Shown: piece after piece, positions 13,178 through 63,206 of the stretch | Position numbering within the stretch: the stretch's first letter is position 1 | Layout: every line of letters begins with the position of its first letter | Source: a virus | Virus record (IMG/VR): IMGVR_UViG_3300042904_000107 | Coordinates: 33,145-97,144 of that record | Direction: 5' to 3' (one strand) | DNA: 64,000 nt | Notes under the pieces: model-generated | The model's input: the letters and a program-made list of their open reading frames with translations, nothing else | The model's database searches: none | What the model was told of the DNA's origin: nothing | Program-made: the position numbers and the translations under genes

Positions 13178-14461
13178 TTACCACGGACGAAGTGTTTTTC
13201 CGGAAGCAGTAGCGTGGTGAGGTAGAGTAGGTTTATCCTCATTATCCGGTCCATCTTTTGCGGTCGCGTCAATCTTGGTGTACATTTCCAAGAAGGCGGA
13301 CTGTGTGTTTTCATCGAATCGGGCAATTGCCAGCTTGAGGGCTTTCAAGCGATTACGTCCGAAGATGCTGTAGCCCTTGATAATGTGGATCAAACGGCCG
13401 GTGGTGATAGTCTCATCGACACCGCCGTCCTTATGAGTCAGGCGAATGTTTTCTGCCCACTGGCAGAGCGGCTCGGCGAATTCCGAATCGGCGATCCCAA
13501 ACTGCTTGAGGTTATTGTTGAGGATTCTCACCTCGATGCGCTTTTCAGGATAACTATGTTCGAATGTTGCACCGGTCAGACGCTCTAAAAGAGCGTCATT
13601 CATGACGTTTGTTCCGATGTACTTCCCGTCTTCACTGCCGCGACCCTTGGTGTTCGCTGTGGCAGCAATGTTGAAGCCAGGTCTCGGGTATACCCACCGA
13701 TTCAGCTTCTTAATGAAGATTCCGTTTCCTTCATAGACGGGCTGAAGGCACATGATCTTGTTCGATCCTAGGTCGATTTCATCCAACATAAGAAGGCCGC
13801 CTTCGGGATCTTCCATCGCTTTGATAACCGGACCGTCTTCCCAGACAGTCTCACCGTTGATGAGACGGAAACCACCGATGAGGTCGGATTCGTCAGTCTC
13901 GATGGTGATGTTGACGCGATAGAGATTCCGCTTCAGTTCAGCGCACGCCTGGAGAATACTCTCCGTCTTACCCGACCGGGTCGGTCCCGTTGAAAGAAAC
14001 GGAAAGAACAGGCGGGACTTGATGATATCGTAAATGTCCTCGTAAGAGCCGAACGGAACGAAAGTCGGATTCGGCTTCGGGACCAGCCCGCTATCAGCCG
14101 GAACAATCGTGGGAGTAGTGTTCAGTTGTGGTTTTGCCGGCATCTGAATGACCTTAACGTCGGTATCTTCGTCATCTTCCTCGGTGAAATCGTCTGGGTC
14201 TTCCTCGGGAGCGCCAGGAATCGGCGTTGACAGATCAACGCTCATTTCGGGATAAGGTAGCTTGTACTTACCGCGACCAAAATGGAATTCAGGGTCTTTA
14301 ACCCAGGATTGACGTCCGAGTTTGTACTTCGCTCGGATCGCAAGCATCTCCTGGCGAGTGAAAAATGTTCGGTCGACTCCGTACTCCCTCTTTACCAGTT
14401 CAGTGAAGTGTTTCTGCTTGGCTTCGAGTTTGGAATTAACCTTAAGGGATGCAGTGGCCAT
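13178..14461 (-). CDS. MoxR/CobS-like AAA+ ATPase of T4-like phages
   Basis: GPTRSGKT, RVNITIETDESDLIGGFRL, LLMLDEID, ATANTKGRG; SD GGAG before ATG 14461. Confidence 0.9.
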   Translation of the reverse strand: MATASLKVNSKLEAKQKHFTELVKREYGVDRTFFTRQEMLAIRAKYKLGRQSWVKDPEFHFGRGKYKLPYPEMSVDLSTPIPGAPEEDPDDFTEEDDEDTDVKVIQMPAKPQLNTTPTIVPADSGLVPKPNPTFVPFGSYEDIYDIIKSRLFFPFLSTGPTRSGKTESILQACAELKRNLYRVNITIETDESDLIGGFRLINGETVWEDGPVIKAMEDPEGGLLMLDEIDLGSNKIMCLQPVYEGNGIFIKKLNRWVYPRPGFNIAATANTKGRGSEDGKYIGTNVMNDALLERLTGATFEHSYPEKRIEVRILNNNLKQFGIADSEFAEPLCQWAENIRLTHKDGGVDETITTGRLIHIIKGYSIFGRNRLKALKLAIARFDENTQSAFLEMYTKIDATAKDGPDNEDKPTLPHHATASGKTLRPW

Positions 14462-14499: not shown

Positions 14500-14901
14500 T
14501 TAGTCGCCACTCTCCACACTCCCAACCGTCTCGGCGGTCGGCTCCGGATCTTTCTTCGGCTTGGGAGACTTTTTCTTCGGCGTCTTCGGGACAGTCTTCG
14601 TCTTCGGTGCCTCTTCGGGTTCCTGTTCCGTCGGCCGCACCGGTGCGGCATCTTCCTGGACGAGCGGGAGCTTCGCGAGGACACTCAAATCGTACATACC
14701 GCGCGTCGTCCTGACGGACATATTGCGAGTGATCCACCGAGGCGCCGCCAATGTGCCCAGGAGTTCTCGTGCGGCCTTCTTCAGTTCCGCGCGTTTGACA
14801 TTGTTGTGCGAATCCCCGAACCGCTCGATCAACTGGGTCAGGAAACGCTTCATTTTCGGAGTGAGCGCAGTCGGCTGGTGGGCCGGGTTGCCTTTTTTCA
14901 T
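14500..14901 (-). CDS. hypothetical protein resembling the N-terminal domain of the adjacent ATPase, with K/P/E tail
   Basis: ORF behind TTGACT promoter; visual alignment. Confidence 0.6.
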   Translation of the reverse strand: MKKGNPAHQPTALTPKMKRFLTQLIERFGDSHNNVKRAELKKAARELLGTLAAPRWITRNMSVRTTRGMYDLSVLAKLPLVQEDAAPVRPTEQEPEEAPKTKTVPKTPKKKSPKPKKDPEPTAETVGSVESGD

Positions 14902-18603: not shown

Positions 18604-18990
18604 TTAGTTTATGGAAACATCTCCTTCAATTTCCAAGTAACCATTGGTCTCAGTATTTACAATCTCAACCACAGGTACAACAGAACTATCGTAGCCATAC
18701 CCTGTTGTTAGTGTGGTGAATTCAATTTCCAAGTTTAGCTCTTTTGCAATCTCTCTGGATCTGCGGAGCCATTCATCATACCGCTCTTGAGTACTCATCA
18801 AAATTACCTCAAATTGTCTACTTTGTTGGAAGCAACTATAATGCATGACAAATCCCACCCACTCATCCCATGAGTTTTTGTGGTATTTCATGACCAACTC
18901 TTCGTCTTCCTCTGTAATGTCACGCTCACACCAGGAGCAATAATCATCACAGAGGTGCTTGACGATGAGTTGTGTTACGTGGACGCTCAT
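18604..18990 (-). CDS. hypothetical protein (CSWC..HYSC)
   Basis: ORF coupled to MTase stop. Confidence 0.5.
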   Translation of the reverse strand: MSVHVTQLIVKHLCDDYCSWCERDITEEDEELVMKYHKNSWDEWVGFVMHYSCFQQSRQFEVILMSTQERYDEWLRRSREIAKELNLEIEFTTLTTGYGYDSSVVPVVEIVNTETNGYLEIEGDVSIN

Positions 18991-20696
18991 TTCTTTTTGG
19001 TCTTCTTTGTTGCTGGCTTCTTAAAGACGAAGATAAGTTCAGTCTTGTGCCACTTCCCGTTCACTTTGCAGAAGTTCTTACAAGTTGGTTTACCATCTTC
19101 ACCAACGCGATTAGCACCAGGCATATTTGCTAGAACCATCTTTTCAACACCAACATACTCAGCACCTAGAGACTCTAGAATAGCCCTGCTATCCTGTTCT
19201 AGTGGGTAGTACTGGTCACCGACCTTAATGTCTGCAATGTTCCACAGTAGATAGCGGTCAGGTTTCAGATTATTATACGCATTTTCCAGAGTTGGTCTAA
19301 GGAATCCATCACGCCACTGGTCATAGAAAGGAAACTTCTTAAGGGACTGGGTATCATCTTCGGAATATCCCTCACGATTAAAATACGGAGGACTAGTGAA
19401 TACGAGGTCCAGTTTGTTTTTGTATTGCTGGAAATCAGGGTGCTCACCAATGACCTCGGAACCTTGAGTGAAAACGTGATAGGTATGAGGATCATAGCCA
19501 AACCGCTTAAGTGACTTATTAACAAAGTCAGCCAGATACTCATAGCGAGTACGGCCCAATTCCTCAATAAAATTATCTGTATTTGGATCCGTCCCGATGT
19601 AATGGACATGCCTGTCATCCATGACTGTCATTGCACCGGCAATTCGTCCACCCCATCCGGATGACGGGTCATAAATGTTGATTACGTCTTGGCTCTTGCA
19701 ATGATCCGTGTATTTTTCGTACAGGTACTTAGCAATCATTGGTGGGAAGTTCACCGCTACTTGAATGTAACCGATCTTGAACGCGGTGAAGCCAATCGGG
19801 AAAATACGAGTGTCTTTCTTGAAAAGACGAATATGGTACTGTTCACTGTCGTTTAGGTCTTTGTTCAGAGCACCTTGCCACTCAACGTCAGTTCTTTCAG
19901 GATCAACACCAACCAGATTGGCAGTGTTTTCGGGAGTGATGATTCCTTGCTTTGCGAGATCGAGTATCTCCGCTTTGCTGAGCCACATGAACTTCGATGC
20001 GTCAACCGAAGTATATCCCGTTCCTACTTCACCATCTTCAGGTGGTTCAACGCGACTGAGCCAGAAACCGTAATCCTTAAAGATCGTGGTGCGGTACGTA
20101 TTGAATGCGTCTACCCACTGTCTACCAGTCTCGGCGCTTTCAACCACCGCTAGTTTACTGCGTTCGGGTAATGACCAAGAGTAACGATAGAACGAATCGC
20201 GTTTAAAGTGGCGTCTACAACCTTTGACCATTCGGTTGCGGAACCGTTCGTTAGCAAATAGATCATAAACAGCATATCCATTAAATGTCCCCTCGTCGTC
20301 TACTTTCGTCTGGTAATTTATCTTCGCCTTCATCATGGTCGGGAAGAATTGATTAACACATGCTCCCAGATAACCATTATTGATGATAACGTTCGCCTTG
20401 CCATCCATCTCATCGACGTACGGTTTGGTACCGCCAGATTTTGCTTTGTAGAGTGAGATTGTCTTTCCTGGAGTACCACTCATTTCACGGAACTCCTCAT
20501 TCATCTCGCGTTCATCCATACCAGCGAGGGGAGGAATCCCGTGTATGTCCCAAACTTCTAATACACGGGATCGCATATGGTCGACCCACTTCTCAAACTC
20601 CGCATCGGTCATTACCAATAATTCGGAAAATTTTGCGTTTACGGAAGGGTCATCAATGATTTGGTCGTTGCGCGACCAGTAGAATTTTTCTGACAT
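18987..20696 (-). CDS. DNA amino-methyltransferase (N4-C/N6-A type) with long N-terminal region
   Basis: YDPSSGWGGR (SAM motif I), YIGTDPN, FTSPPYF..E.Y (motif IV). Confidence 0.85.
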   Translation of the reverse strand: MSEKFYWSRNDQIIDDPSVNAKFSELLVMTDAEFEKWVDHMRSRVLEVWDIHGIPPLAGMDEREMNEEFREMSGTPGKTISLYKAKSGGTKPYVDEMDGKANVIINNGYLGACVNQFFPTMMKAKINYQTKVDDEGTFNGYAVYDLFANERFRNRMVKGCRRHFKRDSFYRYSWSLPERSKLAVVESAETGRQWVDAFNTYRTTIFKDYGFWLSRVEPPEDGEVGTGYTSVDASKFMWLSKAEILDLAKQGIITPENTANLVGVDPERTDVEWQGALNKDLNDSEQYHIRLFKKDTRIFPIGFTAFKIGYIQVAVNFPPMIAKYLYEKYTDHCKSQDVINIYDPSSGWGGRIAGAMTVMDDRHVHYIGTDPNTDNFIEELGRTRYEYLADFVNKSLKRFGYDPHTYHVFTQGSEVIGEHPDFQQYKNKLDLVFTSPPYFNREGYSEDDTQSLKKFPFYDQWRDGFLRPTLENAYNNLKPDRYLLWNIADIKVGDQYYPLEQDSRAILESLGAEYVGVEKMVLANMPGANRVGEDGKPTCKNFCKVNGKWHKTELIFVFKKPATKKTKKK

Positions 20697-20700
20697 GCTG

Positions 20701-21240
20701 CTAATATGTAGGAAATTTTAATTGCTTGTCTTCGAAGAGAATTTCTTCTAGGATCTTTCTAGTATCTCTGAAGTTGGTAAACAAGATCGAATAGCCACCA
20801 GCTTCATTCCACTGAAGGCAATTCTGAGCATTATCATCAATGAGAATGTTACTTTGTCCATTGGTGACCGCCCAATGCTTCTTGTGCGACTTGCGCGTAA
20901 CCACGGTAACTTCGTCTTTATCGATATAAAGATTCCGTTCACACCATTCGTACTTCTGTGGTAAACTCTCAACGACCTTGTCGCTCATCGCCGTGAGGAC
21001 TTCCACCTTCTGACCCTTCATCATATGGTCATAGCGAAGATAGTTCCATAACCACTGACCATCCTGAAGCCAAGGTAACGTCGCATAGAACCTAGGCGTC
21101 CTTTTGGTCAAATCCATTTTCTGCTTTTGTGTGAGTTCCTTATACCCACCTTGGAAATCCCAATGTTTTTTGGCTAGGCGATATACTTCACCTTCCCAGT
21201 CAACTAGGACACCATCCATATCAACGTAAATTATACTCAT
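20701..21240 (-). CDS. HAD 5'(3')-deoxyribonucleotidase-like protein
   Basis: IYVDMDGVLVD, LTA, K..W, ILIDDN. Confidence 0.85.
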   Translation of the reverse strand: MSIIYVDMDGVLVDWEGEVYRLAKKHWDFQGGYKELTQKQKMDLTKRTPRFYATLPWLQDGQWLWNYLRYDHMMKGQKVEVLTAMSDKVVESLPQKYEWCERNLYIDKDEVTVVTRKSHKKHWAVTNGQSNILIDDNAQNCLQWNEAGGYSILFTNFRDTRKILEEILFEDKQLKFPTY

Positions 21241-21249
21241 CCAGTGGGC

Positions 21250-21435
21250 TTAAGAGCCCACGTTCCAGAAAAGGAATTTCTTTTTGGGAGTTTCCGGCCG
21301 AATTAATCTAGGAAGCGTCAATGCATCTACTTCCCATCCTTCCCATTTGACAACGACAAACGGAAGATCAATCGAAATAATTGATCCTCTTGCATAGTCT
21401 GTCATCACACGTTGGCCAATTTTAAGCTCCAACAT
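21250..21435 (-). CDS. small SH3-like hypothetical protein
   Basis: ORF coupled to the PLP gene; duplicated C-terminus. Confidence 0.55.
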   Translation of the reverse strand: MLELKIGQRVMTDYARGSIISIDLPFVVVKWEGWEVDALTLPRLIRPETPKKKFLFWNVGS

Positions 21436-22225
21436 TCCAAAATAGGACTTTCTTTTTGGGTTTTGCTCCGATTAGGACGTGTTCCCAGGCTTTTGCGTCG
21501 TAATTGGGAGACGAAGGGAAAGGCGGGCGCTTATCTTTCTTGCATTCTTCCGCAAACTTCTGCGAATGGCGAATAATTGTGGCTCTACCTTGCTCTGCGG
21601 GTGAGAGAACGTGCCCTATACTTACAGCATAACACTTTGCGTCAGGAAAAGCAAGTTGCAAACCACGGTTAAGGACACCCGATCCCGCAACTGACCAAAT
21701 TTCGTCAGGTTCGAAATCTAGAGTCCGCGCAACCTTTACAACAGATCCAATAACTGCCGGATCTCCGCTGAACTCCACGAGTCTTCTGTGTTGAGGGTCT
21801 TCGGCGACATATTTTCTGGCTCTTCCTTGCGTTACAGTCAACATTCCCATATTGACTTCGTGTATGTCAACACCTAATTGTTTAGCCTTCTCAGAGCTAG
21901 GATGCAGTTCCTTACCCTTGGCAATGAAGACTGTGGCCTTCTTACCATACTTCTTACAGACGGCACCAAGGCCTATCTGACCGTAGCCCCATCGAGAACC
22001 ACCGCCATAAACCCACTCCTGTACGGGTTCTTTCTGCACCATGTAATCGTAGATGCGCTCTTTGGTTCCTCCAGTTAGGAGGTCATCGCGCACAACATAG
22101 ATGCCTTCGTGCTTCTCCACAACAGGTGGTGGGTTTGGGTCGGTCCAGTCTTTTACCTTACTCAGATACCACTCAGGAGATCCTGGCTCGCCTTCGTCTA
22201 CTTCAAAGAAATCTTTCCAACTCAT
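21422..22225 (-). CDS. PLP-dependent enzyme, fold type II (TrpB/ACC-deaminase-like)
   Basis: VRDDLLTGGTKER (Schiff-base Lys), SVAGSG phosphate loop, YDAKAW, LFWNVG. Confidence 0.8.
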   Translation of the reverse strand: MSWKDFFEVDEGEPGSPEWYLSKVKDWTDPNPPPVVEKHEGIYVVRDDLLTGGTKERIYDYMVQKEPVQEWVYGGGSRWGYGQIGLGAVCKKYGKKATVFIAKGKELHPSSEKAKQLGVDIHEVNMGMLTVTQGRARKYVAEDPQHRRLVEFSGDPAVIGSVVKVARTLDFEPDEIWSVAGSGVLNRGLQLAFPDAKCYAVSIGHVLSPAEQGRATIIRHSQKFAEECKKDKRPPFPSSPNYDAKAWEHVLIGAKPKKKVLFWNVGA

Positions 22226-22485
22226 CGGATATCCCTTACAATCTGAGCAATCGTTTCTTCAGGAGCTTCCAAATCACCTTCTTCTAGGAAGAAAGTGTAG
22301 AAGCGTCCTTCATGATTGATCTGGAGCGCTAATTGCTCAGACCATCCTTCATCGTCACTACCATATCGGCAGAACGTAATCGCATGATGGCATTTGGGCG
22401 CTGGAGGCATTTCCTCTTCTAACCGCTTCAGGAAATTGAGGAGTTGTTCTCTCATTTCATGAACCTCTCTACCGTGTCGGCACAA
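22222..22485 (-). CDS. hypothetical protein
   Basis: ORF inside the coupled cluster; start uncertain. Confidence 0.5.
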   Translation of the reverse strand: MCRHGREVHEMREQLLNFLKRLEEEMPPAPKCHHAITFCRYGSDDEGWSEQLALQINHEGRFYTFFLEEGDLEAPEETIAQIVRDIR

Positions 22486-22928
22486 TCATAGACGAAGATC
22501 GTCCCTGGGATTGTTCCGTTTGACCAAACAATCTTACCTGCATCCTGAAACCCAACTGCTTTATGCCACTTGATGGACTGCTCGTTGCTGTCATGTACGC
22601 AACCGAACACGCGACCAGGTTTCACATATTCCTCAACAAACTGTCGGAAGAACAGGAACGGTCCAAGCGTATTCTTCTTATTGGTGCTTAGAATCTGGTG
22701 AATATTCCACTCACCGCGCGAGTACTGATACTCACCGACACGACCACCGCGCTTCATCTGTTGAATTACCGCAATGGTATCGTTGCCCATGAATACTTGT
22801 CCCGCTTCGATACTGCGTACCAAGTAATCTTTACGGACATACAAGAACTTTCCTTCTTTCTTGTACAACTTAAAGCCGTCCTGAATCGCTTTCAGGTCGT
22901 CCTGCGTTGCTACGTGTAACTTAGACAA
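22452..22928 (-). CDS. GNAT-fold acyltransferase-like protein
   Basis: C-terminal V...N..S..WH...GF matches GNAT motif B; IHQI strand. Confidence 0.65.
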   Translation of the reverse strand: MSKLHVATQDDLKAIQDGFKLYKKEGKFLYVRKDYLVRSIEAGQVFMGNDTIAVIQQMKRGGRVGEYQYSRGEWNIHQILSTNKKNTLGPFLFFRQFVEEYVKPGRVFGCVHDSNEQSIKWHKAVGFQDAGKIVWSNGTIPGTIFVYDCADTVERFMK

Positions 22929-23943
22929 ATTTCACCTCGTGATATAGTTTAGGACATAGCTTCTCAAATTCTACATCATCAAGGAAACTATCGGGCGTCA
23001 ATCCTGTCAAGAACGTAACAAACGATCCGTTCTTTTCCGTTTTCTGGTAATTGAAATGGAGTGTCCGTGTAAACTTGAAAAGTTCCTGTAAAATTGCGTA
23101 TTCAACCCGGCGGCTAAAGGCTCTGCAACTCAAGCAGAAATGGTGCAAAGACATGTAGTTGTGGAGAGTGGTATTGAACATGTGTTCTCCAGTAATTACC
23201 GCAATGACACCCAAAGGACCGAAGCGATCCTCGTAACTAACCACATAACCAAAGTTATGACCGATCGAAAGCAGATATTCCAGTCGGTTCTTCTCTGTAA
23301 TCCATCCATTCAGATTGAACTGGTTGGTTTTCTTGATTAGTTCCACTGCTCTATCAATGTTGTTTTCATTGATAGCTGAGAAGGTAAGCTTGGCATTCAA
23401 GCTCTGGTAGAATTCCTCAGGATCTTTTGTGCTCAACTCGGAATTGAACCGCACATTCGAGCGAATGCTTTGCATCCGAAGCTTGTCTTCCTGGGTCGCT
23501 TCGCGCTTCGGGAAGAAATAGCGGACGGACTTCACAAAATTCGGGAAATCTTCCTCATTTTTAGGGAATTTGAGAACTTTGATACCTGGATGCGAATCGA
23601 AGACTTCTGCCAATTCAAAATCGGAGTCATCGATAAACAGCACGTCATCCGCAGAAATATTCCATGTTTTCAGAATGCGTGCCACAGATTCCGACTTTGG
23701 ACCCCAATTTGCCTCGACTGGAAAGAAATGATCTAGTCCTATCTTAGGTTTTAGGATTTCAAACGGAACCTTAACGTCTTCATTCTTACTGGCAATAGCA
23801 AGAAGAATTCCTTCAGTTTCCAATTTTAGTAGGAGTGTCTGATACTGTGCGTACATTCCTTGAACTGTTAAGTCCTCTTCCTCGGATTCTAACCAGATTC
23901 CACCCCAAAGTGTTTTGTCTAAATCGGTAATAATACCTTTCAT
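22921..23943 (-). CDS. FkbH-like HAD-IIIC glyceryl-ACP loading enzyme
   Basis: TDLDKTLWGG, GILLAIASKN, NWGPKSES, FIDDSDFE, KTNQFNL, DRFG.LG.I, LSCRAFSRRVE. Confidence 0.9.
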   Translation of the reverse strand: MKGIITDLDKTLWGGIWLESEEEDLTVQGMYAQYQTLLLKLETEGILLAIASKNEDVKVPFEILKPKIGLDHFFPVEANWGPKSESVARILKTWNISADDVLFIDDSDFELAEVFDSHPGIKVLKFPKNEEDFPNFVKSVRYFFPKREATQEDKLRMQSIRSNVRFNSELSTKDPEEFYQSLNAKLTFSAINENNIDRAVELIKKTNQFNLNGWITEKNRLEYLLSIGHNFGYVVSYEDRFGPLGVIAVITGEHMFNTTLHNYMSLHHFCLSCRAFSRRVEYAILQELFKFTRTLHFNYQKTEKNGSFVTFLTGLTPDSFLDDVEFEKLCPKLYHEVKFV

Positions 23944-24173
23944 GCTGCCTCCACTGCTTCAAGGAAGGCATCGAAGGATGTTAGCTCGGCGATCTTCTCT
24001 AGATTGAGTACATTACCGAATTCATTCTCAATGGCTACTACCAATTCAACAACGCGCACAGAATCCCAGTCTCCAAGCGTGTCTTCACTCGCAGAAAGTA
24101 CCGTTTTGTCTGTCAGATTGGGGAATACCTGTTTGAAGCAGGTAATAAGACGTGATTTTGTCGATTTCTTCAT
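23940..24173 (-). CDS. acyl carrier protein
   Basis: 77 aa; GDWDSV (phosphopantetheine Ser), LVVAIENEFG; coupled to FkbH. Confidence 0.88.
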   Translation of the reverse strand: MKKSTKSRLITCFKQVFPNLTDKTVLSASEDTLGDWDSVRVVELVVAIENEFGNVLNLEKIAELTSFDAFLEAVEAA

Positions 24174-24185
24174 ATTCCAAACATA

Positions 24186-24254
24186 TTCCCGCGCTTAAGT
24201 TATTATTTTAGCACAACTTAGCGCGGGAAAGCAACTGTCAATACTACTTAGGCC
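24186..24254 (-). promoter_or_regulatory. promoter of the ACP cluster overlapped by an inverted repeat
   Basis: TTGCTT-18-TAAAAT; arms TTCCCGCGCTTAAGTT / AACTTAGCGCGGGAA. Confidence 0.55.
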
Positions 24255-24407
24255 TCGTTATATTCCCAGGTTCCGTCGGCGCGAAGAGTCAAAAGACCAT
24301 TGAAAAGTTCCAAGTCAAGCCGCAATTGTTCATCCGATTGGGTCAATCTGAAATCCCAACCCTCGGAGACCATAACATTCACAATATTATTAAGTTCTTC
24401 CGGCATT

Positions 24408-24665
24408 TTAGAAAATTCCTCGTCCTTTCAACGCGATTGAAGCATTTGCAATGTGCAAAGCGCTCCGAACTCTAAGAATAGCCTCGTTCCTGTCAGCACT
24501 TGGTGGGCAGGTAACCAAAATTACTTGCGCGAAGTACTTGGCAGCTTCACGAAGCGACTGGTAATTCGCAATTTCTTCAGGTGTTGGAGCATGGTATCTA
24601 AAAACATGATCTAGATCCATCTCTTGTTGTACGGTCAGGTCGTTAATCATAACTAACGGATTCAA
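24408..24665 (-). CDS. Acb2/Tad1-like helical-hairpin protein (candidate signal sponge)
   Basis: FRYHAPTPEE..Y..LRE.AK.FA..I...CP.SADR..AI......ANASIA pattern. Confidence 0.6.
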   Translation of the reverse strand: MNPLVMINDLTVQQEMDLDHVFRYHAPTPEEIANYQSLREAAKYFAQVILVTCPPSADRNEAILRVRSALHIANASIALKGRGIF

Positions 24666-25011
24666 TATCCTCTTCGGTGAATTTCTTTCGATCTCGGGTA
24701 AAATTTTGAAAAGTTTCTAAAAGGATCTTCTTACCGTCTTTTCTACGCAAATAAAACGGTTGAAAATTCTCGGTAAATCCTCGCTCAACAAATCCTAAAT
24801 CGGAAAGAGCGCATTTTGGATCAGTCTTTCGATATTCACTCAGTACTTGGTAAGCAGAATCCATTGCTCTCCAAACGGCTCGCAAATCATTGAGATCAAT
24901 TTCAACAGTCCCGGATAATTTCCGAGTCTCTAACTTTGGCTCAACAAGTTTGGCAACATACTCCAAACTTTCAATTGACTGAATTGTTCTATTCCACGTA
25001 TATGGCATCAT
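24643..25011 (-). CDS. hypothetical protein
   Basis: ORF coupled to gp46 stop. Confidence 0.5.
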   Translation of the reverse strand: MMPYTWNRTIQSIESLEYVAKLVEPKLETRKLSGTVEIDLNDLRAVWRAMDSAYQVLSEYRKTDPKCALSDLGFVERGFTENFQPFYLRRKDGKKILLETFQNFTRDRKKFTEEDIESVSYD

Positions 25012-56951: not shown

Positions 56952-57264
56952 CCTTCATTTCCTTTTCCCCTTTGGGTCGGCCGGTTCGGGGCCGACCCTT
57001 CTTTTTTGTCAGCCCTCGACTTGGCAGAATTCAGTGGATACCAGCGAAAATTTTTTTGGATAGAAAATCCTAGAAACAATTTTTATGGCCGTTCTGGTGG
57101 CTGGGTCTACGGTGCCCGCGAAAATTTTTTTATTTCAAAAATCTTGCGTCCGCATACAAACTTCTTGCCTCTTGAAGTTTCAGATTGTAGCTAGACACTC
57201 TCTGGAGAGCGTATTTCAGATAAAAAGATCTTAAATCACTTTGAGATACAAAGTAGTAAGTCAC

Positions 57265-57310
57265 AAAAAAGCGCGACTAACAGCGTTACGTATTCGCTAT
57301 CAGTCGCGCT
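57265..57310 (-). terminator. intrinsic terminator of the GG/CC-free unit
   Basis: AGCGCGACTGATAGCG..CGCTGTTAGTCGCGCT followed by a T run. Confidence 0.8.
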
Positions 57311-57319
57311 AACTCTCAC

Positions 57320-57550
57320 TTACATGCTGTCGTCTGTCTCAACTGCAAGAGCGTATGTGTGAAACTGCTCGTGATTCGCGTCGAATGTCAAACGCGCGAC
57401 ATCAAATTCTGTTACTTCGACTTTCTCTGTTGCTTCTGTGTTCTCGAAGAAGACAAACTGTGTAGCGAAGTAAGCTAACACAGTGTCATCTAAGCGAGTG
57501 TCAGTGTCTTCAATCGAGTTGAGTTGTTCTTTCAGTTGTCTATACGTCAT
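57320..57550 (-). CDS. acidic 76-aa protein with no Gly/Pro/Trp
   Basis: leader CGAAAGAGAGAACA-ATG identical to the upstream gene. Confidence 0.75.
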   Translation of the reverse strand: MTYRQLKEQLNSIEDTDTRLDDTVLAYFATQFVFFENTEATEKVEVTEFDVARLTFDANHEQFHTYALAVETDDSM

Positions 57551-57605
57551 TGTTCTCTCTTTCGTTGTTGTGCGCGCTAGTCACGTTCTAGCGCGCTCGT
57601 GTCTG

Positions 57606-58193
57606 CTAACTAAGTAACTGAAGCGCTTGCTCGTTCTGTGCTTCAGTCAATTGCTGTTCGTCGCGTTTCGCGTTCTGAGCGTCGATAGCGCGATCTGTTG
57701 CGCTCTGCTTCGCTTCGCGCTTCGCTTTCGTTTCGCGCTTCGCTTTCGTCGCTTCGTTCGTCGCTTTCGTCACAAGCGCTTTGCTGTCGCTTTGCTTCGC
57801 GTCGCTCGTTGCGCTTGCAAGCTTGCAACGCTTCAGATCGTACAGATGTGATGCTGTCTGAAGCGCTTTGTTCTTCGTCACGTAGTACACAGCGCAGCGT
57901 CGCTCACTATCGACGCTCACAGATGCGTGATAGATCTCAGAGCGCTTATACATGCGCTTTGCATAGCGCTGTTTCGCGTCGTCGCTCACGTTGAGTGCTT
58001 CGTCTTCTTTGATGTCGCGCACAGCGCAATAGCGCTTGAGAGCGTCTTTATCGACGTTGCGCGCAACGAGCGCATCGAAAAACGCGATGATGAGTTGAAT
58101 CATCGCGAATTGCTTCGCGTTGAACTTCGTAAGCGTGATGAGCACGCTATACGCTTCGTTCGTTTCTTTGTTAATCGCTTTTTGAATCGACAT
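57606..58193 (-). CDS. 195-aa protein with no Gly/Pro/Trp and Ala/Lys-rich helical C-terminus
   Basis: leader CGAAAGAGAGAACA-ATG; long ORF. Confidence 0.75.
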   Translation of the reverse strand: MSIQKAINKETNEAYSVLITLTKFNAKQFAMIQLIIAFFDALVARNVDKDALKRYCAVRDIKEDEALNVSDDAKQRYAKRMYKRSEIYHASVSVDSERRCAVYYVTKNKALQTASHLYDLKRCKLASATSDAKQSDSKALVTKATNEATKAKRETKAKREAKQSATDRAIDAQNAKRDEQQLTEAQNEQALQLLS

Positions 58194-58429
58194 TGTTCTC
58201 TCTTTCGTCTCGCAAGTTAGTTTGTGTTGTGCGTCTAGCGTGCTATGAAATCAGCATGTACTAGCGCGTTTAGTGCGTTTCAGTTGTCAAAGAGCAAGTT
58301 ACTAACACTACATTCAGTTGTTGCACTCGCGAAACATACGTGAGCTTGTCTAGCAAGCTTTAGACTCGAATCTAACAGACATGAGCACGAGCGCTGTTAG
58401 CGTTTCGCTTACTTCGTTCTGACATAATC

Positions 58430-58458
58430 AGAATAGCAGAAGCGAAAATGGGGAGCAA
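58430..58458 (-). promoter_or_regulatory. sigma70-type promoter of the GG/CC-free unit
   Basis: TTGCTC-17 bp-TATTCT with TG extended -10. Confidence 0.65.
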
Positions 58459-58794
58459 GTCGCGCAACTTCAATCATTGCTATAGTTTACAGACGTGTGC
58501 AACAAAAGTGTTTAATATCTGAATATCTGAAATAGCTGTATGTGTATGATTCGATTGACTTTATATGACAAAGCAGTGGTGCTCGAAACGACCGCAGCTT
58601 AAATTAGTAGAATCGCAAAAATAATCATTAAAAAACCTTAATCATTTAATTCTTGACAAACACACTCTAGGCCATTTGTCAAGGCGCGCCAGAATTAAAA
58701 AAATTTAATCTCACTTTGCGCCACAAAGTGTTGCATAAGCGAAGCTTCCTCATGCAAACTAGAGCCAGCTCGAAAGAGCGAAGCGAGACAGAAC

Positions 58795-59163
58795 ATGCCA
58801 TACGTGAACTACCGACGACTGACGACGATAACACTCGACCAAGTCTCCCACATGCTGGCGACGGATGACGACTGGCTGGAGCGTGCGATTGTGAAGCTCC
58901 ACGACCGCCAGACTGATTTAGAGCGCCAAGCACGCGAGACACTTGCCATCAAGAATGAAATCGGCCTCCAGCGCGCCGATGCGCTCCTGTTTAGCAAGTA
59001 TGCCGAGCAACTGAAACGGGGGACCCACCTCTCCGACGCCCAGAAGCGCACCGCGCGTCGCCCGTGGAATCGCCCCAAGACCCCGATCCCGACCATTTGC
59101 AAGTATCGCCGGCAAGTGCTCGAAATGATCGAAAACGCCGCACGGAGACAGAGGGGGCTCTAG
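58795..59163 (+). CDS. hypothetical protein, paralog A
   Basis: closely similar to 61330-61692. Confidence 0.8.
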   Translation: MPYVNYRRLTTITLDQVSHMLATDDDWLERAIVKLHDRQTDLERQARETLAIKNEIGLQRADALLFSKYAEQLKRGTHLSDAQKRTARRPWNRPKTPIPTICKYRRQVLEMIENAARRQRGL

Positions 59164-61329: not shown

Positions 61330-61692
61330 CTACTGAGCACGTCTCGCTTTCGCTTCGATGATGTCCAGAATCTGCTTGCGATACTTGCAGATCGTTGGAA
61401 TGGGAGTCTTGGGCCGATTCCACGGACGACGCGCTTGCCGCTTCTCTGTCTCGCTCAGATGTTTGCCGCTCTTGATCTTTTCCGCAAGCTTGCTGAAGAG
61501 GAGCGAATCAGCGCGTTGGAGGCCGATCTCGTTCTTGATTGCCAGCGTCTCTCTCGCTTGACGTTCAAGTTCCGTTTGCCGATCGTGCAGCGCTACGATT
61601 GCACGTTCCAACCACGTGTCGTCCGTGGCAAGCATGAATGCAATCTGTTCCGTGGTGAATGTTGTCTTTCGCTTGTAGTTGACGTATGGCAT
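61330..61692 (-). CDS. hypothetical protein, paralog B
   Basis: closely similar to 58795-59163. Confidence 0.8.
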   Translation of the reverse strand: MPYVNYKRKTTFTTEQIAFMLATDDTWLERAIVALHDRQTELERQARETLAIKNEIGLQRADSLLFSKLAEKIKSGKHLSETEKRQARRPWNRPKTPIPTICKYRKQILDIIEAKARRAQ

Positions 61693-61798
61693 AAGTGTCT
61701 CGCTCTATTCTTAGTATACGTCAGGAAGGACCAGTTATTCAAGTGGAATTTGGCCGGAACATTTGCTTGTAATAAGCTGACCTTCCGAGGGAAACTCC

Positions 61799-62486: not shown

Positions 62487-62963
62487 TTACTCGATGGCGG
62501 CGGCCGGTTCGGCGACCGTCTCGTTCATCGTCTCGCCGGCGGCGACGGGCTCGGCGGGCGTCTTCTTCCCCTTCTTCGGCTTGGCGGCTTCCTTCTTCGG
62601 AGCGGCGCCCTTCTTGGCTTTCGCCGCTTTCTTCTTGGGCGCCGGCGTCTCCGTCGCATCGTCGGCCGCCGGCGGGTGCTTCGCCGCGTGATCGATGAAC
62701 TTCTGGAGGTTGTACAGCGAGGAGCCTTCCTTCTTGCTCGCCTTCGCCATCGTGTTCTTGGTGATGAAGTACGGGCAGGAGGTGTGGTTGCGGAGCTTCT
62801 CGTGCGCCTCGCGCAACTCGACGCGGCGGAGAAGGCCCTTCGCGTAGCGGTCGTGCTCCTCCTGGGTGACGCCATTCTCGCCGATCGGCTTGGCGGTGAA
62901 GTACTTGATGATCTCCGAGCACAGGGCGACCTGCGTGGCGGAGAGTGCGATGCGGTTAATCAT
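62487..62963 (-). CDS. hypothetical protein with histone H1-like K/A/P tail
   Basis: PKKKAAKAKKGAAPKKEAAKPKKGKK. Confidence 0.7.
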   Translation of the reverse strand: MINRIALSATQVALCSEIIKYFTAKPIGENGVTQEEHDRYAKGLLRRVELREAHEKLRNHTSCPYFITKNTMAKASKKEGSSLYNLQKFIDHAAKHPPAADDATETPAPKKKAAKAKKGAAPKKEAAKPKKGKKTPAEPVAAGETMNETVAEPAAAIE

Positions 62964-63206
62964 TTGTCTGTTCTCGCTTTCGGGAGCGGGTTGCGCTCTA
63001 ACAATTACAGAATAACATAGGAGACCACGAGGTTCAAATGGATTCGGGATGGAGAATCATTAAAATTCATTAATGAGGTTGATGGAGGGAACGGACTATT
63101 AGAACCTCCGGAGGAGACGAACCACGGAAGGCGGTCTTACAATAAGCACAATCCGCCTTGACTTCCATTCACACCTCTTTTATGATCGTAGTATGAGCGA
63201 GACAGT

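What the first reader, a model, noticed from the sequence alone, without database searches (positions are those of the whole stretch)
57206..58449. 1.24-kb transcription unit with no GG or CC dinucleotide
Seen: reading line by line, I found no GG and no CC between 57206 and 58449, although G+C is moderate (many CG/GC). Well over 100 would be expected by chance (rough estimate). The void covers one whole unit: promoter (the GGGG bounding it sits in the spacer), ~230-nt leader, two CDSs and terminator. Both proteins lack Gly (GGN), Pro (CCN) and Trp (TGG). Both RBSs are CGAAAGAGAGAACA rather than GGAGG, and hairpins are built from GCGC. Loss of both GG and CC, including in non-coding parts, points to selection on double-stranded DNA rather than on protein. 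Inference: it avoids either the phage's own GG/CC modification or a host system needing GG/CC (NGG or CC PAMs, GGCC/CC-type restriction or phosphorothioate systems, G-modifying toxins). The two proteins are then strong candidates for first-expressed anti-defence or takeover factors; the acidic 76-aa protein is DNA-mimic-like.
Basis: partly seen in the sequence, partly recalled or inferred. Interest (0 to 1): 0.95.

Follow-up and report, generated by a model that had tools for sequence, protein, structure and literature searches.

The report
GG/CC-free early cassette, T4-like phage
A soil T4-like phage keeps one 1.4-kb two-gene unit free of the DNA steps GG and CC, so its proteins lack glycine, proline and tryptophan, while restriction-site patterns in the rest of the genome suggest that GG/CC steps carry a protective chemical mark, which would make this unit the one stretch of unmarked DNA.

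Summary
There is no GG or CC from 57206 to 58449, where about 140 are expected. After a single GGGG the void runs on to 58578. The next longest gap in the 97-kb contig is 65 bp. Avoidance shows at every level: amino acids, synonymous codons, codon junctions and non-coding DNA. Two soil metagenome runs hold the same sequence.

The trait is selected and recurrent. Of 64 retrieved homologs of the 195-aa protein, 16 have no Gly, Pro or Trp. In the void-type set, Met is never followed by a residue whose codon starts with G (0 of 60). An unrelated GG/CC-free island sits at the same genomic slot in another metagenome contig, and a 330-bp depleted stretch sits there in a relative.

New here: in this genome and two relatives, purged restriction-type palindromes survive almost only where a GG/CC step overlaps their end (36 of 37, 28 of 28, 21 of 24). 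This points to a protective mark on GG/CC, possibly made by a conserved SPPY methyltransferase-like enzyme. The island also holds none of the purged words (11 expected).

Best reading: a mark-free cassette. Why it must stay unmarked is unresolved.

This scan has reported GG/CC-free cassettes before, on other phage DNA.

The parts
57206..58449 (.). Core GG/CC-free stretch (1244 bp)
   Evidence: 0 GG/CC where about 140 are expected. It is the longest such gap in the contig by a factor of 10.
58450..58453 (.). Single exception, GGGG (CCCC on the minus strand), at the junction of the -35 hexamer and the spacer of the putative promoter
58454..58578 (.). Upstream extension of the void (125 bp without GG/CC)
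   Evidence: Second longest gap in the contig
58430..58458 (-). Putative promoter TTGCTC-17-TATTCT (weak, 7 of 12)
   Evidence: Read. No site reaches 8 of 12. The same -10 word TATTCT recurs before the normal paralog and before the anchor gene of L016.
58194..58423 (-). About 230-nt leader with no special fold and no Rfam match
57606..58193 (-). Gene for a 195-aa basic protein (pI 9.45) without Gly, Pro or Trp. It has a confident N-terminal domain (residues 1-130) with no fold match in PDB or BFVD, and a K/A/E-rich tail.
57572..57597 (-). GCGC-rich intercistronic hairpin with no T run after it
57320..57550 (-). Gene for a 76-aa acidic protein (pI 4.12) without Gly, Pro or Trp. No homologs were found.
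57264..57310 (-). Intrinsic terminator (16-nt arms followed by a T run)
   Evidence: repeat I6
57212..57235 (.). Left arm of an imperfect inverted repeat that brackets the island. The partner is at 58511-58534 (24 nt, 83% complementary, 11-nt perfect core).
   Evidence: repeat I2. A perfect 11-mer pair is expected about once by chance in this region, so this is only a lead.
62487..62963 (-). Normal-type paralog of the 195-aa family in the same genome (158 aa, with Gly and Pro)
58795..59163 (+). Anchor gene (phrog_21015). Its homologs flank the GG/CC-free or depleted stretch in L016 and G002.
18987..20696 (-). 569-aa methyltransferase-like protein with a TSPPY motif (N4-cytosine type). It is the candidate writer of the inferred GG/CC mark and lies beside NT5C, PLP-enzyme and HAD/FkbH-like genes.

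Best explanation
The phage probably marks its own DNA at GG/CC steps. This 1.4-kb cassette is written without that step, so no mark can be placed on it.

Shown:
- The void is complete and selected.
- It recurs in homologs and at the same genomic slot in other phages.
- The genome purges certain restriction-type palindromes, except copies whose end base lies in a GG/CC step.
- The island contains none of the purged words.

Inferred:
- GG/CC steps carry a covalent modification that blocks restriction enzymes.
- The conserved SPPY (N4-cytosine-type) methyltransferase-like protein writes it. In this phage, accessory genes (NT5C, PLP enzyme, HAD/FkbH-like) that are missing from the void-less relative may elaborate the mark into a bulkier group.

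Most likely purpose (inference): the two products, a basic nucleic-acid-binding-like protein and a small acidic protein, must be made from DNA that neither the mark nor anything that binds, cuts or excises marked DNA can obstruct. I favour escape from a mark-dependent host defence, because the cassette is optional among relatives, its content varies, and the genome also holds an ordinary paralog. The alternative, that the mark itself hinders early transcription by host RNA polymerase, comes second.
For: (1) Void statistics and avoidance at every level.

(2) Conservation.
- Of 64 retrieved homologs, 16 have 0 Gly/Pro/Trp and 6 have one. The rest hold about 2-14%.
- In the void-type set (16 homologs plus the two island proteins), 0 of 60 Met residues precede V, A, D, E or G, where 34% is expected. 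In normal-type homologs the figure is 36 of 137.
- The near-void members P0017 and P0026 keep only the conserved Pro of the SPYF motif.
- Void and normal states interleave on the family tree.

(3) Same slot.
- L016:1-1030 is GG/CC-free except for two GGAA. It is unrelated in sequence, has the same CG/GC excess, and lies directly upstream of the anchor-gene homolog.
- The most depleted 300-bp window in the whole G002 genome (5 seen, 26 expected, p 5e-7) lies at the same place.

(4) Mark on GG/CC.
- In G000, 36 of 37 copies of GACGTC, GAGCTC, GCATGC, GCTAGC, GTCGAC and GTGCAC are flanked so that GG/CC overlaps their end (40% expected, P 1e-13). These six words were chosen post hoc in G000.
- The same six words replicate in G001 (28 of 28) and G002 (21 of 24).
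- CGATCG is flanked 8 of 8 times.
- The control words GAATTC, GATATC and CAATTG are flanked 38-46% of the time.
- An unbiased split by depletion gives Fisher p 1.2e-6 in G000.
- A/T-ended words cannot be flanked in this way, and they are simply absent (ACGCGT 0, TGATCA 0, TGCGCA 2).

(5) The island holds 0 of the 14 purged words, against 11.1 expected from its own composition. None of 3000 simulations gave 0. This is what unmarked DNA would require.

(6) Candidate writer. The TSPPY methyltransferase-like gene is present in G000, G001 and G002 at 72% identity. The accessory genes are found only in G000, which has the full void. They are absent from G001 (no void) and mostly absent from G002 (mini-void).
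Against: - No direct evidence of any modification exists. The sparing rule is indirect, and the six-word set was chosen post hoc in G000, although it replicates in G001 and G002.
- The unbiased test is weak in G002 (p 0.09).
- G001 shows the sparing rule but has no void, so a mark alone does not require a naked cassette.
- The link between void and accessory genes rests on three genomes.
- Other early genes with strong sigma-70 promoters contain GG/CC, and many of those promoters themselves carry GGCC. The mark therefore cannot block host RNA polymerase in general.
- The functions of both proteins are unknown.
- The time of expression is unknown.
Confidence: 0.5

Rival explanations
1. A host factor that reads unmodified GG/CC selects against the step only in this cassette, because its products must be made before or despite that attack. 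Candidates are CC or NGG PAM-dependent CRISPR effectors, or a CC/GG-specific nicking, ADP-ribosylating or deaminating enzyme.
For: - The strand-symmetric, complete loss of a 2-bp word fits a PAM-like reader.
- T5 gives a precedent for local vulnerability: only spacers against the pre-early region interfere (PMC5389539).
- Genome-wide CC depletion has been reported for phages targeted by type I-F CRISPR systems (PMC12174588).
- The cassette is optional and its content varies, as with anti-defence loci.
Against: - The rest of the genome has GG/CC at normal frequency (o/e 0.97), so a cleaving reader would still kill the phage.
- This is a T4-type phage (gp17, gp20, gp23). T4 itself packages by the headful and has no fixed first-injected end (general knowledge, not tested here).
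- If GG/CC steps are marked, as searches suggest, such readers would already be hindered genome-wide.
Confidence: 0.22
2. The constraint acts on the RNA: the transcript must lack GG and CC. Possible reasons are escape from an RNase or RNA-modifying toxin, from CsrA-type GGA binders, or from anti-SD pairing.
For: - The void covers a whole transcription unit.
- RNA-level dinucleotide readers exist (the CmdT preprint, listed, was not read here).
- The start regions lack GGAG.
Against: - Both GG and CC are lost, which would need two separate RNA constraints.
- The void extends 55 bp beyond the terminator and about 125 bp upstream of the -35 hexamer.
- The L016 island spans genes on both strands and their promoters.
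- The island also lacks the purged DNA palindromes.
Confidence: 0.08
3. Self-avoidance: a product of the cassette itself binds or attacks GG/CC-containing nucleic acid, so its own gene must lack the target.
For: The 195-aa protein is basic with a lysine-rich tail, as in nucleic-acid binders. The genome also holds a normal paralog.
Against: - Most family members are encoded by ordinary GG/CC-containing genes.
- The L016 island holds unrelated genes, while its family member lies outside the island and is of normal type.
- The depleted stretch in G002 has no clear gene.
Confidence: 0.06
4. Chance, an assembly artefact, or unselected hypermutation (CC-specific deamination).
For: None beyond the general possibility.
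Against: - The chance probability is about e^-140.
- Two separately assembled runs hold identical sequence.
- G+C is kept at 47.5% with an excess of CG and GC, where decay would give an excess of TC and CT.
- The conserved reading frame is intact and has 61 homologs at E<=0.001.
Confidence: 0.01

Closest known systems
Motif-free first-step-transfer (pre-early) DNA of phage T5
   Same: In both, a small early block is the locally vulnerable part of the genome and is kept free of target words. In T5, only spacers against the pre-early region interfere with infection (PMC5389539). The absence of EcoRI sites from T5 first-step-transfer DNA is recalled from memory and was not checked here.
   Different: Here the banned word is a dinucleotide, which costs three amino acids. 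The phage is T4-like, with no evidence of two-step or fixed-end DNA entry. The cassette is optional among relatives.
Genome-wide restriction-site avoidance and CRISPR PAM depletion
   Same: Both involve selection against short DNA words. This genome has no ACGCGT, TGATCA, CTCGAG or CCCGGG. CC-PAM depletion in Pseudomonas phages is reported in PMC12174588.
   Different: Those effects are genome-wide and, for PAMs, statistical. Here the loss is complete but confined to 1.4 kb, while GG/CC is normal elsewhere (o/e 0.97).
Sequence-specific or global phage DNA modification with dedicated counter-defence proteins (T4 glucosyl-hmC with Arn and IPI*; Mu Mom). This comparison is from established knowledge and was not tested here.
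   Same: A phage-made DNA mark that blocks restriction enzymes, together with small early proteins that deal with mark-dependent defences.
   Different: The mark inferred here is tied to a dinucleotide. No known system keeps a mark-free gene cassette. No homology to Arn, IPI* or Mom was found.
PeSL (promoter-early stem-loop) cassettes of T4-type phages (Arbiol et al. 2010, cited in earlier scan note e1-5899974; paper not read here)
   Same: Small early genes lie between early promoters and stem-loops in a plastic region, and the content is shuffled between relatives.
   Different: As far as I know, PeSL cassettes are not described as dinucleotide-free. The promoter here is weak.

Membership tests
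Local target-word avoidance in an early phage cassette (T5 FST type) | Complete absence of a target word from a defined block while the rest of the genome has it | tested here: met
   0 GG/CC in 1244 bp; genome-wide o/e is 0.97
Local target-word avoidance in an early phage cassette (T5 FST type) | The block enters the cell first or is expressed first | not testable with these tools
   No RNA run is listed. The phage has T4-type packaging genes and the contig is incomplete. Only a weak promoter was found.
Sequence-specific phage DNA modification that blocks restriction | Restriction words survive only where they overlap the modified motif | tested here: met
   36 of 37, 28 of 28 and 21 of 24 copies are flanked, against 40% expected. 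Control words sit at 38-46%.
Sequence-specific phage DNA modification that blocks restriction | Chemical detection of a modified base at the motif | not testable with these tools
   Only assembled contigs are available.
N4-cytosine / N6-adenine amino-methyltransferases (PF01555), for the 569-aa protein | Catalytic motif IV (SPPY for N4-C, D/NPPY for N6-A) and a match to the family profile | tested here: inconclusive
   A TSPPY motif is present. The Pfam match is below the curated cut-off (25.6 bits against 26.7) and covers only the C-terminal part.
DNA-mimic anti-restriction proteins (Ocr, Arn, ArdA), for the 76-aa protein | An acidic surface that imitates the DNA backbone, plus homology or fold similarity to a known mimic | tested here: inconclusive
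   pI 4.12 with 17 acidic residues of 76. No homologs. The Atlas model has pLDDT 0.45 and the AF2 model 52.5.
Known protein families, for the 195-aa protein | A significant match in Pfam, PHROGs, PDB or BFVD | tested here: not met
   The VIA wide search aligned almost only the C-terminal helix, so the N-domain is barely tested there.

The most novel reading that the evidence does not exclude
T4-like soil phages write a covalent, possibly bulky, mark on every GG/CC step of their DNA. They keep optional 'naked' gene cassettes, recoded at the cost of three amino acids, whose products work from unmarked DNA. This would be a previously undescribed design principle (modification-free genes inside a modified genome) and a previously undescribed dinucleotide-specific DNA modification.
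Probability: 0.4. Interest if true: 0.9.

Novelty: new variant of a known kind. Interest (0 to 1): 0.82.

Why it matters
If the reading holds, it does three things. It reveals a dinucleotide-directed DNA mark in an uncultured phage group. It names a candidate enzyme for that mark. And it shows that selection on DNA chemistry can remove three amino acids from proteins for as long as it takes homologs to diverge to 27-58% identity.

The GG/CC-free state can be recognised from protein sequence alone: no Gly, Pro or Trp, and no Met followed by V, A, D, E or G. That gives a simple screen for such cassettes, and for the still unknown factor behind them, across metagenomes. Their products are natural candidates for proteins that handle mark-dependent host defences.

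Tried and rejected
DNA for the 16 void-type homologs could not be fetched, so their voids are inferred from protein composition only.
- The search for related loci with the family alignments found nothing in viral, metagenome or genome contigs, apart from G001, G002 and three metagenome contigs.
- tblastn against GenBank phages gave no match.
- Pfam and PHROGs gave no significant family for the 195-aa or 76-aa proteins, for normal-type members, or for the L016 ORF.
- Fold searches of the 195-aa model gave nothing: PDB Foldseek E >= 1, BFVD E >= 0.8, and VIA wide matched only the C-terminal helix. The profile search against PDB sequences also found nothing.
- The 76-aa protein has no homologs, Atlas hits only to unnamed viral clusters, and an AF2 model at pLDDT 52.5 that was not searched further.
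- The L016 123-aa ORF matched only itself.
- No RNA holder is listed among sequencing runs.
- The leader has no significant fold and no Rfam match.
- Cumulative GC skew did not locate an origin.
- General restriction avoidance as the cause of the void is rejected, because the island is rich in GCGC (28) and CGCG (22).
- A tRNA or codon-level cause is rejected, because junctions and non-coding DNA are void.
- I first argued that G001 shares the modification genes and so speaks against a role for the phage's own mark. I withdrew this after one search showed that G001 shares only the methyltransferase-like gene and GMPR.
- Three literature searches found no description of dinucleotide-free cassettes.
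Full report
**1. The observation**

The window is the last 64 kb of a 97,144-bp IMG/VR virus contig (CheckV completeness 53%). Between 57204 and 58450 there is no GG and no CC. Base composition predicts 72 CC and 68 GG. After one GGGG (58450-58453) another 126 bp are free, so the void runs from 57206 to 58578 with a single interruption. The next longest gap in the contig is 65 bp, and no other dinucleotide class has a comparable void. G+C stays at 47.5% because CG and GC are about 1.7-fold over-represented. Logan contigs of two soil metagenome runs from two studies carry the stretch unchanged. They may be the source samples, but they rule out an error peculiar to one assembly.

**2. Anatomy**

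The unit lies on the minus strand. In order it contains:
- a weak promoter candidate, TTGCTC-17-TATTCT (58458-58430), with the CCCC at the junction of the -35 hexamer and the spacer;
- a leader of about 230 nt with no special fold and no Rfam match;
- a 195-aa gene (58193-57606);
- a GCGC-rich hairpin;
- a 76-aa gene (57550-57320);
- an intrinsic terminator (57310-57264).

No sigma-70 match of 8 of 12 or better exists for this strand. The same -10 word precedes the normal paralog and the anchor gene of L016.

The two start regions share a 21-nt repeat. Its core is a variant of a motif, GAAAG[AC]GAGA[AC]CA, that neighbouring GG/CC-containing early genes also use. It is therefore not an adaptation peculiar to the island.

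Avoidance is seen at every level:
- no Gly, Pro or Trp, against 12.5% in reference proteins;
- no GCC, ACC, TCC, CGG or AGG codon among 93 Ala, Thr, Ser and Arg codons;
- no NNG|GNN junction in 97 cases (18.7% in reference genes);
- no NNC|CNN junction in 52 cases (25.5% in reference genes).

**3. The phage**

It is a T4-type myovirus. It has the major head protein, portal, sheath and large terminase, and TATAAATA late promoters. Long genes fill the minus strand up to window position ~51600. Beyond lies a plastic region of small genes with strong TTGACA-N17-TATAAT promoters, many of them carrying GGCC. Two complete relatives exist in IMG/VR: G001 (176.8 kb) and G002 (179.7 kb). G001 is syntenic with this contig at 63-73% nucleotide identity in core genes.

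**4. The trait is selected and recurrent**

A profile search found 61 homologs of the 195-aa protein at E <= 0.001. Together with cluster members, 64 related sequences were examined. None belongs to a named family. Their Gly+Pro+Trp content is bimodal: 16 have none, 6 have one, and the rest hold about 2-14%.

In the void-type set (the 16 homologs plus the two island proteins), none of 60 Met residues is followed by V, A, D, E or G, whose codons start with G. The expectation is 34%. In normal-type proteins the figure is 36 of 137. This shows, from protein sequence alone, that the encoding DNA of these distant homologs (27-58% identity) also avoids GG at codon junctions.

The near-void members P0017 and P0026 retain only the conserved Pro of the SPYF motif, which full-void members replace. 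On the family tree the two states interleave. At least two changes are forced by well-supported branches. Composition bias may affect that tree.

The genome itself holds three family members: the void copy, an ordinary paralog at 62487-62963, and a core-genome member at 14500-14901.

**5. The void belongs to a locus, not to a gene family**

In metagenome contig L016, positions 1-1030 (cut by the contig end) hold only two CC, both as GGAA on the other strand. This stretch has no sequence similarity to our island but the same CG/GC excess. It ends exactly at the GGAG of a homolog of window gene 58795-59163, which likewise lies to the right of our island, about 215 bp beyond its edge at 58578. 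The L016 island holds a different minus-strand gene (123 aa, one Gly, one Trp), a small plus-strand ORF and two promoters. L016's member of the 195-aa family lies outside the island and is of normal type.

In G002 the most GG/CC-depleted 300-bp window of the whole 180-kb genome (5 seen, 26 expected, p 5e-7) is again directly upstream of the anchor gene. G001 has no void at all (longest gap 112 bp) and no depletion at the slot.

**6. A mark on GG/CC**

Prompted by an earlier scan note on another T4-like phage (e1-5763487), I tested whether restriction-type words are spared next to GG/CC.

The genome lacks ACGCGT, TGATCA, CTCGAG and CCCGGG altogether, and is poor in TGCGCA, CAGCTG, CTGCAG and others. 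For palindromes that begin with G and end with C, the surviving copies are almost all preceded by G or followed by C:
- G000: GACGTC 8 of 9, GAGCTC 4 of 4, GCATGC 4 of 4, GCTAGC 3 of 3, GTCGAC 10 of 10, GTGCAC 7 of 7. Together that is 36 of 37, against 40% expected (P 1e-13).
- G001, same six words: 28 of 28.
- G002, same six words: 21 of 24.
- Words that are not depleted (GAATTC, GATATC, CAATTG, CATATG) sit at 38-47%.
- CGATCG is flanked by C or G in 8 of 8 (G000) and 4 of 4 (G001) copies.

A split made only by depletion (o/e below 0.7 against the rest) gives 48:8 against 130:122 in G000 (Fisher p 1.2e-6). It gives p 0.017 in G001 and p 0.09 in G002.

The simplest reading is that GG/CC steps carry something that blocks restriction enzymes, that is, a DNA modification.

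The island cannot be so protected, and it contains none of 14 purged or depleted words. Its own first-order composition predicts 11.1, and none of 3000 simulations gave zero.

A candidate writer is the 569-aa protein at 18987-20696. It has a TSPPY motif and a sub-threshold PF01555 match, and is conserved at 72% identity in G001 and G002. In G000 it is followed by NT5C, PLP-enzyme and HAD/FkbH-like genes. G001 lacks these genes and G002 mostly lacks them. This parallels full void, no void and mini-void, but with only three genomes.

**7. Mechanism**

Best reading (about 0.5): the cassette is the one stretch of the genome that cannot be marked. What is shown and what is inferred is set out under Best explanation.

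Why it must stay unmarked is open. I favour escape from host functions that recognise the mark (type IV-like nucleases or glycosylases). The cassette is optional, its content differs between phages, and the genome keeps an ordinary paralog as well. A lesion-type or binding-type attack would make a purely local absence of targets useful.

The 'pioneer operon' idea of note e1-6058759 holds that the mark blocks host RNA polymerase. It is weakened by the many GG/CC-containing early promoters and genes and by G001. It is not excluded if the mark in G000 is bulkier.

The rivals are a host reader of unmodified GG/CC such as a PAM-dependent effector (0.22), an RNA-level constraint (0.08), self-avoidance by a cassette product (0.06), and artefact (0.01). 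Evidence for and against each is listed under Rival explanations.

**8. The proteins**

The 195-aa protein is basic (pI 9.45). Its N-terminal domain (residues 1-130) is confidently modelled (whole-model mean pLDDT 84.6) but finds no match in PDB or BFVD. Its tail is lysine- and alanine-rich. A nucleic-acid-binding role is a guess.

The 76-aa protein is acidic (pI 4.12), has no homologs and has no usable model. The DNA-mimic idea remains untested.

**9. Novelty**

Three literature searches found no description of dinucleotide-free gene cassettes. The nearest published phenomena are the locally vulnerable pre-early DNA of T5 (PMC5389539) and statistical CC-PAM depletion (PMC12174588).

This scan has already reported GG/CC-free cassettes in other phages, including T4-like ones. 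Those notes are unchecked AI leads, and the present case is not the first sighting.
- the protein-only Met-junction test across a family;
- a second island at the same slot;
- the co-existence of void and normal paralogs in one genome;
- the finding that the same genome and its relatives obey the GG/CC sparing rule while the island avoids the purged words outright.

Noticed in passing
whole contig (window 1-64000 and the 33 kb before it): The six-base palindromes ACGCGT, TGATCA, CTCGAG and CCCGGG are absent from all 97 kb, and TGCGCA occurs twice (17 expected). This is classical restriction avoidance, so the DNA is exposed to type II enzymes.
   Followed up: yes
window 53535, 54917, 12954(-), 1024(-), 3622(-), 17391(-) and others: Strong early promoters share a consensus that extends beyond TTGACA-N17-TATAAT. 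GGTCTAGC or GGCCTA lies just upstream of the -35 hexamer, and often a GGCC lies in the spacer or after the -10. If GG/CC is marked, these promoters are marked.
   Followed up: partly
window 58795-59163 (+) and 61330-61692 (-): There are two copies (76% identical) of a phrog_21015 gene in inverted orientation. Homologs of this gene flank the GG/CC-free or depleted stretches in L016 and G002.
   Followed up: partly
window 14500-14901 (-): A third, core-genome member of the 195-aa family (133 aa, Pro/Lys-rich tail) lies between a 427-519-aa ORF (13178-14461; not searched against family libraries here) and the phrog_459 gene. It is conserved in G001 and G002.
   Followed up: partly
window 57551-57567, 58194-58210, 62964-62990, 61693-61715, 58765-58794: The early genes of this region share a start-region motif, GAAAG[AC]GAGA[AC]CA, in place of the GGAG used by late genes.
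   Followed up: partly
window 57212-57235 and 58511-58534: An imperfect inverted repeat (24 nt, 83% complementary, 11-nt perfect core) sits at both edges of the island. It may mark the boundaries of a cassette, or it may be chance.
   Followed up: no
L016:1-60 and L016:676-750 / 958-1030: Three and a half tandem copies of an 18-nt unit lie at the contig end. A ~70-nt promoter-bearing element is duplicated inside the GG/CC-free island.
   Followed up: partly
window 20701-25011 compared with G001 and G002: The NT5C, PLP-enzyme and HAD/FkbH-like genes, together with the orf158 and orf122 ORFs, lie between the methyltransferase-like gene and gp46. All are absent from G001. All but one are absent from G002.
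   Followed up: partly
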